From Mobula hypostoma (lineage: Eukaryota): a DNA stretch of 64,000 nucleotides. Shown piece by piece: positions 32,371 through 39,754 of the stretch. The stretch covers positions 25,172,001-25,236,000 of the forward strand of contig NC_086108.1 of assembly GCF_963921235.1 (NCBI RefSeq). Direction: 5' to 3'. How positions within the stretch are numbered: position 1 is the stretch's first letter; the number at the start of each line of letters is the position of its first letter. Below the pieces are notes generated by a model. The model was not told where the DNA came from. It did not search any database and worked only from the letters and a program-made list of their open reading frames with translations. The translations under genes and the position numbers were made by a program.

Positions 32371-33185
32371 AGCAATAAAAATAGATCTTTGATAAGCGAG
32401 CTGTCGTGTATTCCTTTAGAGAAATGCACGCACTGGATTAGTTATAAAAACCATTGCAATAAATTCATCCAATTTCAATATGTTAAATGCTTTGGAGTCA
32501 TGTTATGTAAACACTTAGAAACAGTCATTCACGGGAAAGAGCCAATATATGCACACAGTTGGAGATGTCTTACCTTGTTCAATGCCAGACAAATGTGTGA
32601 AAAAAGGAACATTTTACCGCAATTTGAACAGTATGACAAAGATTTTGAATGTGTTTAAATGTAAGTCAGGTATATTTATCCTGATGGATGGTTTAATTGA
32701 AGTTCTACTATTTTGATCCTTTTAATAAGAAAGGGGGCAATTTTAAATTTAAATGGATATCTGTTTTGAGGAAACATTGGCTGCTGGTTCTAGGATTGCT
32801 ATTGTGGAGGGTTTTTGTTAGCCTGAACTGTTAGGGTCTCACAGAAAATCAGATTCAAAAAATTTTGCTGCTGGATGCCTGTTCAACTTTGAGAGATACT
32901 TCTGCACAGTCATGCACTTAGCTTTATGAAGAAGACAAGAATATAACCAAATTTAAAACCATCCTATCCCAATTTGGACCCGGTTTGACAATTAAGACCA
33001 TTGTAAATGTCTACATAATTAGACGTCAACTGCTGCCAGATAAGCAGATTTTCCAGACTACTGAATGTTATTCATATTCCCTCAATAGATTTTCTATTTA
33101 CTTTTAGTTAATGAATGATAATTAACCAGTGAAACACTTAATGGGAGCAATAGGAAGTAGGATATGTTCAAAGGCAGTGTGGGAA

Positions 33186-33411
33186 TGTGGTAAACCATAT
33201 ATATGTTGTAACTGGGTTACCTGTCTGGACACGCCCCCCTGCTGACTGCCCCGTGGCTCCTCCCACAGAGTCCTGTATAAAGGTGTTTGCCTTGCCCCTC
33301 CCCCTCAGTTCGGGGGCAGACACTCACCATGGAGGTCGTATTGTACAGAGAATAAAAGCCTTTCGGTATTTTACCTAACCTCAGTCTCTTGGAGTTATTG
33401 AAGGTGCTTCA
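33186..33411 (+). repeat. 5' LTR (226 bp)
   Basis: TGTGGTAAACC...GGTGCTTCA; TATAAA at ~33276, AATAAA at 33351. Confidence 0.95.
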
Positions 33412-33437
33412 ATTTTATTCGCTGTACATTTTAAAGC

Positions 33438-34240
33438 ATGGAACACACATTGAGACCCGACAAATTAGACCTCGATCCGCAAACACCTGAAGCTGGAAAC
33501 GCTTTCAAACTCTGGCTGGCCTGCTTCGAAGCATACCTAGATGAGATTAAAGTGACCGACCCCGTAGTGATGTGTAGAGTTCTACTCTCCAGGGTCAGTC
33601 CACGGGTTTATTCGCTGATCAGAGACCAGCCGAGCTACGATGGCGCGATGAGCGCACTCAAAGGACAATACCTGCGGCCGATAAACAGCGTCTATGCTCG
33701 GCACCGCTTAGCGACATGGCAACAACGGTCCGGGGAATCAAGTGCTGAGTTCGTCCGAGCCCTACAGACACTCGTGCGGGCCTGCAATTGCCAGGAGCTG
33801 ACGGCGGCGCAGCATGCAGAACTCCTAGTGAGAGACGCCTTCGTCACGGGGACCAGGTCAGTGAATGTGCGCCAGTGGCTGTTGGAAAAAGCCAATCTTA
33901 CCTTAAGTTCGGTGATCAAGCTGGCCGACATGCTAGAGGCCGCTCTGCATAACTCTGAGGCTCTCCAGGCATGCGATCCCCCGATGGCCTCGTGGGCGCC
34001 GCAGACCCTGCAACCCGCCAGCGAATTGACCTCAGCTGTCGCTAGTCGCAAGTCCCTGTAACCCACCAGTGAATCAACCTCGGCTGCCGCCAGTCACAAA
34101 TCCGCGAAGTGCTACTTCTGGGGACTGGAGAAGCAGCCCTGGAAAATGCTGCCCGGCCCGAGAGGCTGCCTGCTCCAGCTGCGGAAAGAAGGACCTCTTC
34201 GCAAAGGTCTGTAGGTCCAGGCTGCGAGCGGGATCGTGCA
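33438..34240 (+). pseudogene. gag: gag (frameshifted near 34060)
   Basis: ORF 33438-34061 with QQRSGESSAEFVRALQTLVRACNC and VRDAFVTG; continues in another frame with the degenerate knuckle CPAREAACSSCGKKDLFAKVC. Confidence 0.88.
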
Positions 34241-34499: not shown

Positions 34500-37409
34500 G
34501 CTTGCAAGGTCAATGATGGACATCCTGGTGGAGGGGTGCAGGACAAGCTGCCTGTTTGACACAGGCAGCATGGAGAGTTTTATCCACCCGGCCACGGTGT
34601 AGCATTGTGGACTCATGATACGTCCGGTGAGTCAGAGGGTCACCATGGCTTCCGGGTCGCATACAACAGACATCTGGGGGGTTGTGTAGCGAAACTAGTG
34701 GTGCAGGACACAGAATATCAAGACTTTACGTTACTGGTCTTGCCTCAACTGTGTACCCCTGTGCTGTTGGGGCTAGACTTCCAGAGCCACCTGAAAAGCA
34801 TGACAATGAAGTATGATGGACCCCTCCCACCAATTACTGCCGTAAATCCCCAGTTTTGTAGGGATACGTCACATACCCCGCGACTGACCAAACACACACA
34901 CTGACCCGCATATCCCACCCAACACCATGCCAACAGCCACACTACCGACACCACTTGCGGCCTCTCCACCCTCAGGATCCCTCCCCCACCGCTGTTCGCC
35001 AACCTGACCCCCGACTGTAAACCTGTGGCAACTAGAAGCAGGAGGTACAGCGCGGGGGACAGAGCTTTCATAAAGTAGGAGGTGCAGCGGCTGCTCAGGG
35101 AGGTGGTCATTGAGGCAAGCACAAGTCCTTGGAGGGCGCAGGTGGTGGTTGTTCGGAATGGAGAGAAGAATAGGATGGTCGTGGACTATAGCCAGACCAT
35201 CAATAGGTTCACGCAGCTCGACACGTACCCTCTACCCCGCATCGTGGATATGGTCAATCAGATAGCACAGTACAAGGTGTACTCGACCATCGACCTAAAA
35301 TCTGCTTACCATCAGTTCCCCATCCACCAGGAGGACAGCCCTTACACTGCCTTCGAAGCGGACGGCAGGCTTTATCAATTCCTGCATGTCTCCTTCGGTG
35401 TCACGAATGGTGTATCTGTCTTCCAGAGGGCAATGGACCGGTTGGTGGACCAGTGCCAACTGAAGGCCACGTTCCCATATCTGGATAACATCACCATCTG
35501 CAGTCACGACCGGCAGGATCACAACAACAACCTCCAAAAATTTCTCCAAGCGGCCAAAGCTTTCAGTCTCACCTATAACAAGGACAAGTGTGTGTTCAGA
35601 ACCACCCGACTTGCTATCCTTGGGTGTGTCATGGAGAATGGAGTCATTGGCCCTGACCCCGACCGTATGCGCCTCCTGTTGGAACTCCTTCCCAACACGC
35701 TCAGAGCCCTCAAAAGGTGCCTGGGCTTCTTTTCATATTATGCCCAATGGGTCTCTAACTACGCAGACAAGGCCCGCCCCCTGGTCGTCCACCACATTCC
35801 CCCTCTCAGCCGAGGCCCACGCGGCCTTCAACCGCAATTAAAAGGGGACATTGCCAAAGCAGCAATGCATGCGGTGGATGAAGCCATTCCCTTCCAAGTA
35901 GAGAGTGACGCCTCCGACTTCGTGCTGGCTGCTACCCTCAACCAGGCGGGAAGACCGGTGGCGTTCTTCTCCCGTACTCTTCCTGAACTTCGGTACTCCG
36001 CAGTGGAGAAAGAGGCCCAGGCCATAGTGGAAGCTATTAGGCACTGGAGGCACTATCTCACCGGCAAAAGGTTCACCCTGCTAACTGACCAGCACTCAGT
36101 CGCATTCATGTTTAATAACCAACAGCAGGGTAAAATCAAAAACCATTAAAATTCTGAGGTGGAGAATCGAACTCTCCACCTACAACTATGACATCATGTA
36201 CAGGCCTGGAAAGCTCAACAAGTCCTCTGATGGCTTATCCCGGGGAACATGCGCCAGCGAGCAGATCAATCGGCTATATGCCCTACATGTAGATCTTTGC
36301 CACCCGGGGGTCACCCGGCTTTTCCACTTTGTGAAAGCCCAGAACCTGCCTTACTCCCTTGAGGAGATCAGGATGATGACCAGGGACTGCCAAGTCTGCG
36401 CAAAGTGCAAACCGCACTTCTACCAACTCAAAAAGGCACAACTCAGCGAGGCCACCCACCCCTTTGAGCGACTGAGTGTTGACATTAAGGGCCCCCTTCC
36501 GTCCACCGACCACAATGTGTACTTTCTTAATGTTATCAACGAGTACTCGCGGTTCCCCTTCGCCATCCCCTGCCCCGACACCACTACCACGTCAGTTATA
36601 AAAGCCCTGCGCAAGCTCTTCACTCTGTTCGGATACCCATGCTATATCCACAATGACAGAGGGTCCTCGTTTATGAGTGATGAGCTGCACCAATATCTAC
36701 TGGCTAGGGGAATTGCAACCAGTAGGACCACGAACTATAATCCCTGGGGGAATGGACAGGTGGAGAAGGAGAATACCACGGTGTGGAAAGCCACACTCTT
36801 AGCCCTCAGGTCAAAGGGACTGTCAGTCTCTCGCTGGTAGGAGGTCCTTCCCGAGGCACTCCACTCCATCCGCTCCCTGTTATGCACAGCCATCAATGCC
36901 ACCCCTCATGAGCGGCTCTTTTCTTTTCCCAGAAAGTCAACCACTGGGACCACCCTACCAACTTGGCTGATGTCCCCGGGGCCAGTGCTGCTCTGGAAAC
37001 ATGCGAGGAGCAATAAATACTCCCCGATGGTCGAGAAGGTTCACTTCATGCAAACCCCCAGTATGCCTACGTGGTTTTACCTGATGGGCGGGAGGACACG
37101 GTCTTCATCCACGACCTGGCGCCCGCAGGAGAACCGGGCCCCTACCCTGAACACTTCGTGGTGACTATTGACCCCGTACCCACCAATGTATGTACCCACG
37201 AGACACCGTGCACTCCAAGCCCTACACAGACACCACACGACACTCCCATACCAGGTGCGACACACACGCAGGAGGGATTAACAATGCCTAACGTGCTGGC
37301 ACCTCAAGTCAGACTGGAGCCAGCACAACCGCTGTCACCGATACAATCACCACTGGTGCTATGTAGATCACAGCGACGGACTCGACTGCCTGATAGACTT
37401 GACCTGTAA
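34500..37409 (+). pseudogene. pol: pol: protease, RT, RNase H, integrase (multiple stops and frameshifts)
   Basis: LFDTGS protease; SPW, DY..IN, IDLKSAYHQ and YLDN RT motifs; ESDASD and EKEAQA RNase H; H-H-C-C plus VDIKGP / HNDRG / VEKEN DDE integrase; no chromodomain seen. Confidence 0.93.
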
Positions 37410-37477
37410 ATATACTTGTTGTAAATATTGTCAGTCACTTCACCCCGCTGAACTCTTTTTGAAAAAGGAAGGGTGAA

Positions 37478-37705
37478 TGTGGTAAACCATATATATGTTG
37501 TAACTGGGTTAACTATCAGGACACACCCCTCTGCTGACTGCCCCTGTGGCTCCTCCCACAGATACCTGTATAAATGTGTTTCGCCTTGGCCCTCCCCCTC
37601 AGTCCAGGAGCAGACACTCACCATGGAGGTCGTATTGTACAGTGAATAAAAGCCTTTCGGTATTTTACCTAACCTCAGTCTTTTGGAGTTATTGAAGGTG
37701 CTTCA
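37478..37705 (+). repeat. 3' LTR (228 bp)
   Basis: Direct repeat of 33186-33411 with roughly 16 differences counted by eye. Confidence 0.95.
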
Positions 37706-37710
37706 GGGAA

Positions 37711-38760
37711 ACAGGGCCCTAGTGTTTTCAAAGGCAGTGTGGGAAACAGGGTCCCAGAGTGTTCAAAGGCAGTGTGGGAAACAGGGCCCCACAGTGTTCA
37801 AAGGCAGTGTGGGAAACAGGGCCTCAGAGTGTTCAAAGGCAGTGTGGGAAACAGGGCCTCAGAGTGTTCAAAGGCAGTGTGGGAAACAGGGTCCCAGAGT
37901 GTTCAAAGGCAGTGTGGGAAACAGGGCCCCACAGTGTTCAAAGGCAGTGTGGGAAACAGGGCCTCAGAGTGTTCAAAGGCAGTGTGGGAAACAGGGCCCC
38001 ACAGTGTTCAAAGGCAGTGTGGGAAACAGGGCCTCAGAGTGTTCAAAGGCAGTGTGGGAAACAGGGCCTCAGAGTGTTCAAAGGCAGTGTGGGAAACAGG
38101 GTCCCAGAGTGTTCAAAGGCAGTGTGGGAAACAGGGTCCCAGAGTGTTCAAAGGCAGTGTGGGAAACAGGGCCCCAGAGTGTTCAAAGGCAGTGTGGGAA
38201 ACAGGGCTGCAGAGCATTGAAAGGTAATGTGAGAAGCAGGACCCCAGTGAACTGAAAGGCAGTTTGAGAAACAGGGCCGCAGAATGTTCAAAACTAATTT
38301 GGGAAACAGGGCCTCAGAATGTTCAAAGGCAGTGTGGGAAACAGGGCCTCAGAGTGTTCAAAGGCAGTGTGGGAAACAGGGCCCCAGAGTGTTCAAAGGC
38401 TGTGTGGGAAACAGGGCTGCAGAGCATTGAAAGGTAATGTGAGAAGTAGGACCTCAGTGAACTGAAAGGCAGTTTGAGAAACAGGGCCGCAGAATATTCA
38501 AAACTAATTTGGGAAACAGGGCCCCAGAGTGTTCAAAGGCTGTGTGGGAAACAGGGCCTCAGAGTGTTCAAAGGCTGTGTGGGAAACAGGGCTGCAGAGC
38601 ATTGAAAGGTAATGTGAGAAGTAGGACCCCAGTGAACTGAAAGGCAGTTTGAGAAACAGGGCCGCAGAATATTCAAAACTAATTTGGGAAACAGGGCCTC
38701 AGAATGTTCAAAGGCAGTTTTGGAAATAGGGCCCTAAAGTGTTCAAAGGTAGTGTGCAAA
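37711..38760. repeat. 35-bp minisatellite, ~30 units (GTGTTCAAAGGCAGTGTGGGAAACAGGGCCTCAGA)
   Basis: Direct 35-nt periodicity; the first unit begins at 33165-33185, on the other side of the Gypsy insertion. Confidence 0.97.
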
Positions 38761-39754
38761 AGAGGATACCAAAATCTGTAAAGAGAATGTGGAAAACTAC
38801 ATTTAGTGAGCAAAATGCCGAACTATTTGAATTTCCAAATATGATATACCAGATATTGGAGTGTTACTGTATTATTTCTTAATTGAATAACAGCTCCAGT
38901 CTCTAATTCCACTTCCTATTGAATTGTTCTGCAGTTACAGATTATAGAGTTCAAAATTCAGCAGGAAAATAATTTAAAGGATCTCTTTGACTTGCATGTA
39001 CATGTTTGAGCGTTAATTGAATTAGTGCTGCTATCAGTCATAGAGACAAAACCAAGAATCAAAACAGCCAAGAATGAATCTTTTATGGCTGAGAACTAGT
39101 TAATATCAAATACTAGAAGTAAATATGACTGAAATTTCTTCTGCTGGATGAATACATGCTATTTTAGCATAATCCTACACAAGTAGGACTCATCAAGGAC
39201 GATAAATATCAGGAAATTAACAAAGTAAGGAAGCTTCGAGGAAGCTCTTGGTCTGAGACCGTTTGTGTGAAATCTAAGTAAAGCCCCTAAACTTCTGGGA
39301 AGTCTGATTAAACAAGAAATGCCTGCACAGCAAATCAATGAGTATCTTTGTTGAACAGACAAATGGACGTTCCAGCTAATTGGAAATTGCAGCTGGTTTA
39401 ATTGGAATTAACAGCCAATATCTGAGCAATATATGCTAGTGAGATTGGAAAACAACAGACAAGGTGAGAGGAAATCAGAAAGAGGTAGAACCATGTCACT
39501 ACCAAACTGGCCATCCCAGAGGTGCTGTGTAAATGGAACTTGTTGTTACTTAATGAAAGAATGTTAGTTTATGTAAAGGAATATTTTTGAAACATTGAGA
39601 TGTGAGCCTGTAGTGTGTTTAAATAGTAACTAGACAAAAGCTGTTACAGAGGATAACACAGGTGGGAATATTGAGGAAATGGAAAAGGAGAAAGGAGAAG
39701 TACAGAAAAATACAGCAGGTCAGAAATAAACATATTAAAGTAGTCCCGTTTTTT

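What the first reader, a model, noticed from the sequence alone, without database searches (positions are those of the whole stretch)
33342..33428. Gypsy element without a tRNA PBS: post-LTR sequence is complementary to its own LTR poly(A) signal region (candidate self-priming)
Seen: the 5' LTR ends ...TTCA (33411) and is followed by A and then TTTTATTCGCTGTACA (33413-33428), not the TGG expected for tRNA-CCA priming. This 16-mer is the reverse complement of TGTACAGAGAATAAAA in the LTR (33342-33357, one mismatch). The 3' LTR version, TGTACAGTGAATAAAA, turns that mismatch into a G-U pair, so the ancestral base was plausibly C. Known: Tf1/sushi chromoviruses self-prime by folding the transcript's LTR end onto the PBS and cleaving to expose a 3'-OH. 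Inference: the geometry fits, since a 3'-OH after AATAAAA would sit 1 nt from the LTR edge. But the pairing partner is the poly(A) signal, about 35 nt inside the transcript predicted from the TATA box, and no chromodomain is visible. The duplex could both prime reverse transcription and mask the 5' poly(A) signal, which may be a distinct priming strategy. I cannot tell whether it has already been described.
Basis: partly seen in the sequence, partly recalled or inferred. Interest (0 to 1): 0.85.

Follow-up and report, generated by a model that had tools for sequence, protein, structure and literature searches.

The report
Self-priming retrotransposon clade in animals
A decayed jumping gene in a cartilaginous-fish genome belongs to a widespread animal group of Gypsy-type retrotransposons that most likely start copying themselves with a piece of their own RNA, usually the piece carrying the poly(A) signal, instead of a borrowed host tRNA.

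Summary
The 16 nt at 33413-33428, one base after the 5' LTR, are the reverse complement of LTR bases 33342-33357, which include AATAAA, with one mismatch.

The complementarity is a family trait. Of 30 genomic copies, 14 pair 16/16, 11 pair 15/16 and 5 pair 14/16. A sister family in the same genome has a different 15-nt pair with three compensatory double changes.

It extends to distant relatives (RT 44-59% identical) in metagenome contigs. A 12-19 nt complement of the element's own LTR sits at the same place in 26 of 48 testable loci, or 32 of 48 with decayed and edge cases. I counted 22 distinct sequence pairs. Own-family pairing runs 12-19 nt, against a cross-family median of 4 and maximum of 9. 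RNAalifold finds 15 pairs, 13 of them with compensatory changes.

There is no TGG-type PBS, and the leader often has no room for another primer site. No chromodomain was found.

Best reading: Tf1-like self-primed reverse transcription in a chromodomain-less, probably Mag-like, metazoan Ty3/gypsy clade. The primer's 3' end falls at a conserved UAAA|RCC junction that is a canonical poly(A) hexamer in 13 of 22 families.

The transcription start, the poly(A) site and the cleavage itself were not observed. I found no description of this in the searchable literature.

The parts
33181..33185 (.). Target-site duplication GGGAA, left copy
   Evidence: the same 5 bp flank both LTRs (right copy 37706-37710).
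33186..33411 (+). 5' LTR (226 nt, TG...CA)
   Evidence: direct repeat with 37478-37705, about 93% identical.
33276..33281 (+). TATAAA, candidate TATA box
   Evidence: TGTATAAAGG is kept unchanged in 24 of 30 family copies. Function is predicted only.
33305..33311 (+). Initiator-like TCAGTTC; predicted transcription start at A33307
   Evidence: 31 nt after the TATA box. CTCAGTCC or CTCAGTTC is kept in 25 of 30 copies. Not measured.
33342..33357 (+). Segment S: candidate self-primer, TGTACAGAGAATAAAA, containing AATAAA (33351-56)
   Evidence: complementary to 33413-33428. 22 of 30 copies have the perfectly matching form.
33358..33412 (+). 55-nt loop (rest of R, U5 and 1 nt). It starts with the conserved GCC and would be the template of minus-strand strong-stop DNA.
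   Evidence: the loop is 36-79 nt in 22 families, and RCC follows S in 18 of 22.
33413..33428 (+). Primer-binding site, complementary to S and not to a tRNA end
33438..34061 (+). gag start (ATG 33438) and first gag frame; only 9 nt lie between the PBS and the ATG
   Evidence: The gag N-terminus is conserved in the full-length relatives aligned.
34560..34904 (+). Protease region (by position; no Pfam hit in this decayed copy)
   Evidence: Relatives carry aspartic-protease Pfam families here.
35079..36149 (+). Reverse transcriptase and RNase H
   Evidence: RVT_1 9.2e-25, RT_RNaseH 8.8e-22.
36085..37164 (+). Integrase (rve core), broken by a stop at 36838-40 and by frame changes
   Evidence: rve 2.7e-15.
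37461..37477 (+). Polypurine tract GAAAAAGGAAGGGTGAA
   Evidence: The same tract sits before the 3' LTR in 8 of 8 sister copies.
37478..37705 (+). 3' LTR; its copy of S lies at 37636-37651
37706..37710 (.). Target-site duplication GGGAA, right copy; also the first bases of a 35-bp satellite array

Best explanation
The window holds a dead copy (several frame breaks and stops) of a 4.5-kb Ty3/gypsy LTR retrotransposon. It belongs to a chromodomain-less clade found across animals, probably the Mag lineage. The clade does not use a tRNA primer. A 12-19 nt segment S inside the LTR, in the transcribed R region, folds back onto the complementary primer-binding site. That site starts one base after the 5' LTR, and the fold closes a 36-79 nt loop made of the rest of R and U5. 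By analogy with Tf1, the element's RNase H would nick the RNA at the 3' end of S, at a conserved UAAA|RCC junction. The new 3'-OH would then prime minus-strand strong-stop DNA across the loop. That DNA would transfer to the 3' end of the RNA through the short stretch between the poly(A) hexamer and the poly(A) site. What is shown: the complementarity, its exact position, its conservation within families, and its covariation between families. What is inferred: the cleavage, the priming, the start of the RNA, and any masking of the 5' poly(A) signal.
For: (1) Position. The PBS starts 1 nt after an LTR end that is fixed by 5-bp target duplications (6 of 8 sister copies; 7 metagenome loci).
(2) No other primer site. 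There is no TGG, and the leader from LTR to gag ATG is 27 nt in the window. In some relatives the PBS abuts or overlaps the ATG (to_ATG 0-2 in L068, L072, L074 and L079).
(3) Within the family. Of 30 copies, 14 pair 16/16, 11 pair 15/16 and 5 pair 14/16.
(4) Sister family in the same genome (at least 1998 candidate loci). LTR TTACTGCTAATAAAA pairs with PBS TTTTATTAGCAGTAA, with three double changes relative to the window's family. This form is present in 11 aligned copies, with scattered single changes.
(5) Distant relatives. A perfect hairpin of at least 12 nt occurs in 27 of 48 loci in the 1300 nt upstream of RT, against 3 of 61 in 1300 nt of RT coding sequence. 26 of 48 lie exactly 1250-1500 nt upstream of RT, just before the gag ATG.
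(6) Covariation over 22 distinct S/PBS pairs. Own-family pairing runs 12-19 nt (median 15); cross-family pairing has median 4 and maximum 9 over 462 combinations. RNAalifold predicts the helix de novo with 13 of 15 compensatory pairs. 95.9% of cells are paired against 66.9% when shuffled, with 0 of 500 shuffles as high, and slid partners give 31-48%.
(7) Folding. The helix is in the minimum-energy fold in 6 of 6 RNAs tested, with z-scores of -2.8 to -6.7 for five of them.
Against: No RNA data were obtained. The transcription start, the poly(A) site, the cleavage and the strong-stop cDNA are all unobserved.
The window copy's own fold is not exceptional (z -1.24; 22 of 200 shuffles fold as well).
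16 of 48 testable relatives show no hairpin or only a doubtful one. They may be decayed, truncated or truly different.
The 22 families were chosen because they have the hairpin. The covariation therefore shows that the pairing is maintained where it is present, not that it is universal.
In L128/L130 the complement starts about 9 nt after the apparent LTR end.
G+T richness downstream of S does not exceed that upstream (0.58 against 0.62), so this gives no independent support for S being the working poly(A) signal.
Confidence: 0.8

Rival explanations
1. The S-PBS helix is only a regulatory structure. It might hide the promoter-proximal poly(A) signal, or gate translation and packaging. Reverse transcription would be primed by something else.
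For: S ends in a canonical AATAAA or ATTAAA in 13 of 22 families. The helix ends 0-10 nt from the gag ATG in many families. Poly(A)-signal hairpins that regulate 5' versus 3' use are known in retroviruses (recalled, not checked here).
Against: The helix starts at the canonical PBS position, 1 nt after the LTR, in nearly all families. No TGG or other conserved site is left in leaders of 13-45 nt. 3 of 22 families keep the pairing without any poly(A)-like hexamer at the end of S, and two more have a canonical hexamer in the loop instead. So the pairing is the constant feature, not the hexamer.
Confidence: 0.1
2. The primer is the copy of S near the 3' end of the RNA, or on a second RNA. It would pair with the 5' PBS by cyclisation or in trans. 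This would apply, for instance, if transcription starts downstream of S and AATAAA doubles as a TATA-like box.
For: A second initiator-like CCTCAGTCT lies 32 nt after AATAAA (33379-33387). If S lies in R it is present at both RNA ends. Most invertebrate LTRs show no clear TATA box upstream of S.
Against: The fish families keep a canonical TATAAA with an initiator 31 nt downstream, both upstream of S. With S only in U3, the strong-stop DNA would have no continuous template after the first jump (my reasoning). R would be only a few nucleotides long.
Confidence: 0.06
3. A host tRNA, tRNA fragment or other cellular RNA is the primer, and the match to the LTR is incidental.
For: Only that tRNA halves prime some elements (plant copia lineages), and that the host's tRNA set was not compared with the 16-mer here.
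Against: There are 22 different PBS sequences, each matching its own LTR, including two in one genome. The only shared part is TTTA. No tRNA gene lies in the window. The sequence is A/T-rich and unlike a tRNA.
Confidence: 0.02
4. The match arose by chance, or is a neutral leftover of an inverted duplication.
For: None beyond the single-copy view.
Against: 0 of 100 shuffles; 27 of 48 against 3 of 61; 0 of 500 shuffles.
Confidence: 0.01

Closest known systems
Tf1/Tf2 of Schizosaccharomyces pombe and Tj1 of S. japonicus (self-primed Ty3/gypsy elements)
   Same: The PBS is complementary to the element's own LTR-derived RNA rather than to a tRNA. In Tf1, RNA structures pair the two regions and RNase H cuts to make the primer (passages read in PMC7175516, and PMC4600332). 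A stem next to the primer helix is also seen here. For Tf1 I know of a U5-IR-like stem only from a paper title in reference lists.
   Different: [quoted passage not shown] Here the paired stretch is 12-19 nt and, in the fish families, is predicted to lie at +36 to +51. Its 3' end coincides with a poly(A)-type hexamer in most families. The hosts are animals, there is no chromodomain, and no experiment exists.
Vertebrate Tf1/sushi group (Butler et al. 2001), Tcn1 of fungi and non-seed plants, and TAR/Houba copia of plants: predicted self-primers
   Same: Self-priming is inferred from LTR-PBS complementarity (PMC6317226 passages; PMC6934838 passage).
   Different: Those Ty3/gypsy lineages are chromoviruses, and TAR is a copia lineage. 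The present clade has no chromodomain in any of the 120 listed relatives, and its nearest non-fish relatives are in cnidarians, insects and nematodes. Butler et al. 2001 was not held, so I could not check whether it mentions such elements.
Mag lineage of Ty3/gypsy (C-clade/SURL, Jule of Xiphophorus)
   Same: Small size (about 4-4.8 kb), short LTRs (about 100-300 nt), TGT...ACA ends and a wide metazoan spread including vertebrates. PMC3601003 gives a Mag C mean LTR length of 174 nt and termini TGTNATRT...AYANAACA. PMC6238403 gives the distribution. That Jule is about 4.8 kb with about 200-bp LTRs is recalled.
   Different: Membership was not tested with named reference sequences. None of the papers I could read says how Mag-lineage elements prime. 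Volff et al. 2001 was not held.
Poly(A)-signal hairpins in retroviral R regions (e.g. HIV-1; recalled, not checked here)
   Same: AAUAAA in R is sequestered in a helix near the 5' end of the genomic RNA.
   Different: In retroviruses the partner strand is not the PBS and the hairpin is not the primer.

Membership tests
Ty3/gypsy (Metaviridae) LTR retrotransposon | LTRs with TG...CA ends, a short target duplication, a PPT before the 3' LTR, and the gene order gag-PR-RT-RNase H-IN | tested here: met
   226/228-nt LTRs, 5-bp GGGAA duplication, PPT at 37461-77, and RVT_1, RT_RNaseH and rve in that order.
Self-primed LTR retrotransposons (Tf1-type mechanism) | No tRNA-complementary PBS; the sequence next to the 5' LTR is complementary to the element's own LTR | tested here: met
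   window family; sister family; relatives.
Self-primed LTR retrotransposons (Tf1-type mechanism) | The complementarity is kept by compensatory change among relatives | tested here: met
   13 of 15 pairs have double changes, and 0 of 500 shuffles are as high.
Self-primed LTR retrotransposons (Tf1-type mechanism) | The complementary stretch is the first bases of the mRNA | tested here: inconclusive
   In the fish families the TATA box and initiator predict a start 35 nt upstream of S. In some relatives an initiator-like motif falls at or near the first base of S (L068, L135). No RNA ends were obtained.
Self-primed LTR retrotransposons (Tf1-type mechanism) | RNase H-dependent cleavage of the RNA creates the primer 3'-OH | not testable with these tools
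   Needs biochemistry or cDNA-end mapping.
Tf1/sushi group (chromoviruses) | Chromodomain at the C-terminus of integrase | tested here: not met
   no Pfam hit in the C-terminal ORFs. PF00385 is absent in all 120 listed relatives.
Tf1/sushi group (chromoviruses) | RT/IN phylogeny places the element with Tf1, sushi and related elements | not tested
   No named reference sequences could be obtained. The nearest named hits are uncharacterised fish, cnidarian, insect and nematode proteins.
Mag lineage (C-clade/SURL/Jule) | RT-RH-IN phylogeny with Mag, SURL and Jule references | not tested
   Only indirect agreement in size, LTR length and termini.

The most novel reading that the evidence does not exclude
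In this clade the self-primer is not the 5' end of the RNA. It is an internal stretch of R whose 3' end is the poly(A) hexamer itself, cut at a conserved UAAA|RCC junction. One helix would then do three jobs. It would prime reverse transcription. It would hide the promoter-proximal poly(A) signal while leaving the 3' copy free, because that copy has no PBS downstream. It would sit on the gag start codon, coupling translation to priming. The working R for the first strand transfer would be only the short spacer, with its hairpin, between the poly(A) hexamer and the poly(A) site. That would be a self-priming design distinct from Tf1, and it would be widespread in animals.
Probability: 0.35. Interest if true: 0.75.

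Novelty: new variant of a known kind. Interest (0 to 1): 0.62.

Why it matters
Self-primed reverse transcription has been shown by experiment only in fission-yeast elements. Beyond that it has been inferred mainly for chromoviruses and some plant copia lineages. Here the same signature, with strong covariation, marks a chromodomain-less Ty3/gypsy clade found from cnidarians and insects to cartilaginous fish. In this genome the clade has thousands of copies (more than 2,600 and about 2,000 candidate loci for two LTR types).

Three consequences follow.
- These elements would not depend on host tRNAs. They would therefore not be targets of the small RNAs from tRNA 3' ends that act on tRNA-primed elements (abstract of PMC7472051, search listing).
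- Annotation tools that look for tRNA-type PBSs will under-call or mis-score them.
- The coincidence of the primer end with the poly(A) hexamer offers a testable solution to how a short LTR ignores its 5' poly(A) signal.

Tried and rejected
- RNA evidence: the look-up of sequencing runs listed no holder on record as RNA. The four runs laid were Logan contigs that behave like DNA. LTR depth was 10-50 times the internal depth, and loose ends sat at the LTR edges. They gave no start, end or poly(A) site. They did confirm the LTR edges.
- Transcript-like contigs: no metagenome contig ended in a poly(A) or poly(T) run. Contigs that end near S are assembly overlaps.
- G+T richness after S as a sign of a downstream polyadenylation element: no difference from upstream (0.58 against 0.62).
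- Minus-strand control of the hairpin scan (29 of 48): uninformative, because hairpins are strand-symmetric. The coding-region control was used instead.
- tRNA genes in the window: none.
- Other copies in the window: none.
- Earlier notes of this scan near the window or by sequence: nothing.
- Papers not held: Lin & Levin 1997, Volff 2001, Butler 2001, Lin & Levin 1998, Levin 1996, Esnault & Levin 2015.
- Literature: six full-text searches found no paper linking self-priming to the Mag, SURL or Jule lineage, or to a poly(A)-signal primer.
- Clade placement by a tree with named references: not done, because no reference sequences were available.

Full report
**Observation.** The 5' LTR ends ...GCTTCA at 33411. 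One A follows, then TTTTATTCGCTGTACA (33413-33428). There is no TGG. Its reverse complement occurs once in each LTR with one mismatch (33342-33357 and 37636-37651). In 100 shuffles of the window, matches with up to 3 mismatches averaged 0.46, and none of the 100 shuffles reached the 5 observed. The mismatch is A33349 opposite G33421. The 3' LTR has T there, which gives G-U.

**The element.** The LTRs are 33186-33411 and 37478-37705, about 93% identical. They are flanked by a 5-bp duplication GGGAA. A polypurine tract lies at 37461-77. Between the LTRs lie gag (ATG at 33438, only 9 nt after the PBS), a protease region, RT/RNase H and integrase, in Ty3/gypsy order. At least four frame changes and two in-frame stops break the reading frames, so the copy is dead. 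No chromodomain is detectable. The window holds no tRNA gene and no second copy of the element.

**The family in its genome.** The assembly is 3.48 Gb. A search with the LTR-PBS stretch gave more than 2,600 candidate loci, of which 40 were scored. In 30 aligned copies, the LTR segment (S) is TGTACAGCGAATAAAA in 22 and the PBS is TTTTATTCGCTGTACA in 19. Pairing is 16/16 in 14 copies, 15/16 in 11 and 14/16 in 5. Most departures are at the CpG. The window copy is therefore a decayed member of a family whose usual form pairs perfectly. The TATAAA box is kept unchanged in 24 of 30 copies. The initiator-like CTCAGTC/T, 31 nt downstream of it, is kept in 25 of 30.

**A sister family in the same genome.** Protein searches with fish relatives led to further copies. 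One of them, L049, represents a family with at least 1,998 candidate loci. Its LTR reads TTACTGCTAATAAAA and its PBS reads TTTTATTAGCAGTAA. That is a 15-nt helix in which three positions differ from the window's family on both strands. Eleven aligned copies carry this form, with scattered single changes. Target duplications of 5 bp in 6 of 8 sister copies fix the LTR ends.

**Distant relatives.**
- The RT's best named hits are uncharacterised proteins of rays and sharks (73-86% identity). Next come cnidarian, insect and nematode proteins at about 55-58%. None of the 120 listed hits has a chromodomain.
- A scan of metagenome contigs with a protein alignment gave 80 loci with RT 44-59% identical.
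- Starting from LTR pairs, 15 of 24 loci have a 13-19 nt exact complement of their own LTR beginning 0-2 nt after the 5' LTR. The other nine were mostly assembly overlaps or misplaced repeat ends.
- Starting from the gag ATG, 15 of 17 loci with an open gag have a complement of at least 11 nt in the 45 nt before the ATG.
- A blind hairpin scan (perfect, at least 12 nt, loop 25-110 nt) hit 27 of 48 loci in the 1300 nt upstream of RT, against 3 of 61 in RT coding sequence.
- 26 of the 48 hits lie 1250-1500 nt upstream of RT. Two more sit near a contig start. Four more have 1-2 mismatches. That makes 32 of 48. The remaining 16 show nothing or only doubtful matches.

**Covariation.** I counted 22 distinct S/PBS pairs: 20 metagenome families and 2 fish families.
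- A family's S pairs with its own PBS over 12-19 nt (median 15). It pairs with another family's PBS over a median of 4 and at most 9 nt, across 462 combinations.
- RNAalifold, run on a MAFFT alignment of the 22 stretches, predicts exactly this helix: 15 pairs, 13 of them with compensatory double changes.
- Pair counting gives 95.9% of cells paired, against 66.9% in shuffles. None of 500 shuffles reaches any of the five measures. Partners slid by 1-3 columns give 31-48%.
- Caveat: these 22 families were picked because they have a hairpin. The numbers therefore show maintenance by compensation, not universality.

**Conserved anatomy.**
- One base, almost always A, separates the LTR's final CA from the PBS.
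- In one search, S ends in AAA in 20 of 22 families (positions 1-3). By my reading of the listed S sequences, 19 of these end in TAAA or TAAAA.
- A canonical AATAAA or ATTAAA ends at the 3' end of S, or one base before it, in 13 of 22 families.
- Other endings are GTTAAA, TTTAAA and GATAAA.
- Three families (L102, L105, L128/130) have no such motif. L065 and L066 have a canonical hexamer in the loop.
- The next three bases are RCC in 18 of 22 families, often opening a small hairpin.
- Loops are 36-79 nt.
- The minimum-energy folds contain the helix in 6 of 6 RNAs. The z-scores are -1.2 for the mismatched window copy and -2.8 to -6.7 for the others.

**What could not be settled.** No RNA run was on record. 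The four runs I laid behave like DNA. No contig carries a poly(A) end. G+T content after S is unremarkable. Three things therefore rest on motifs alone: the start of the RNA, the poly(A) site, and whether S's hexamer is the working signal. In the fish families the TATA box and initiator put S at +36 to +51. In some relatives an initiator-like motif coincides with the first base of S, which would be the Tf1 arrangement.

**Mechanism.** The most economical reading is Tf1-type self-priming, in these steps:
1. S pairs with the PBS.
2. The element's RNase H nicks after UAAA.
3. RT extends across the loop.
4. The strong-stop DNA jumps to the 3' end of the RNA, using the stretch between the hexamer and the poly(A) site.

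The pairing, its place and its covariation are shown. The nick, the priming and the jump are inferred from the published Tf1 mechanism (passages in PMC7175516, and PMC4600332). Masking of the 5' poly(A) signal and gating of the gag start are plausible extras without evidence.

**Comparison with what is known.** Self-priming has been demonstrated for Tf1. It has been inferred for Tf2, Tj1, fungal relatives, the vertebrate sushi group, Tcn1 and plant TAR copia. All the Ty3/gypsy cases named there are chromoviruses. The present clade lacks the chromodomain. Its size, LTR length and LTR termini resemble the Mag lineage, but I did not test this with reference sequences. Six full-text searches found nothing on self-priming in Mag, SURL or Jule elements, or on a primer ending in the poly(A) signal. 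The key older papers were not held, so prior description cannot be excluded. Earlier notes of this scan report self-priming signatures in diatom copia elements and in a Plasmodiophora gypsy family. The trick therefore seems to recur more often than the literature suggests, and that tempers the novelty.

**Verdict.** I class it as a new variant of a known kind: a widespread, chromodomain-less animal clade whose self-primer ends at a conserved UAAA|RCC junction, usually the poly(A) hexamer.

Noticed in passing
window 37706-38865 and 33165-33185: The element sits in a 35-bp satellite (at least 29 units to the right). The left flank holds only about 21 nt of one unit, and the duplicated GGGAA is part of the unit. 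Either the insertion hit the first unit, or the array grew afterwards.
   Followed up: no
window 33358-33360; loci L065-L135 just after S: The three bases after S are RCC in 18 of 22 families. In about 12 families they open a small local hairpin (for example ACCTAT..ATAGGT in L066 and GCCTA..TAGGC in L079), with G-C to A-U covariation at the first pair. In the fish families GCC instead pairs with the end of U5. This may be a recognition stem for the cut.
   Followed up: partly
L068, L072, L074, L079; window 33428-33438: The PBS helix ends 0-2 nt from the gag ATG, or overlaps it, in several families (9 nt in the window). The helix could also gate translation.
   Followed up: no
window 33379-33387: A second initiator-like CCTCAGTCT lies 32 nt after AATAAA, mirroring the TATAAA-to-CTCAGTT spacing upstream. 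It is the basis of the low-probability rival in which transcription starts downstream of S.
   Followed up: partly
L050 and L051 5' LTRs (alignment): Some sister copies carry one or two extra tandem copies of a U3 motif of about 24 nt (CTGCTGACTGCCCCTGTGGCTCCT-like), an enhancer-like repeat that varies in number.
   Followed up: no
L054:2134-2362: In four public runs the LTR depth is 10-50 times the depth of the adjoining gag, and many contigs diverge exactly at the LTR edges. This suggests many solo LTRs.
   Followed up: no
P0012, P0091: Full-length relatives are filed in public databases as proteins of bacterial MAGs ('Rhizobiales bacterium', 'bacterium', 'transposase InsO family'). They are almost certainly eukaryotic retrotransposon contigs binned by mistake.
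   Followed up: no
L102, L105, L128/L130: Three families keep the S-PBS pairing without a poly(A)-like hexamer at the end of S. In L128/L130 the complement starts about 9 nt after the apparent LTR end. L065 and L066 have a canonical hexamer in the loop instead.
   Followed up: partly
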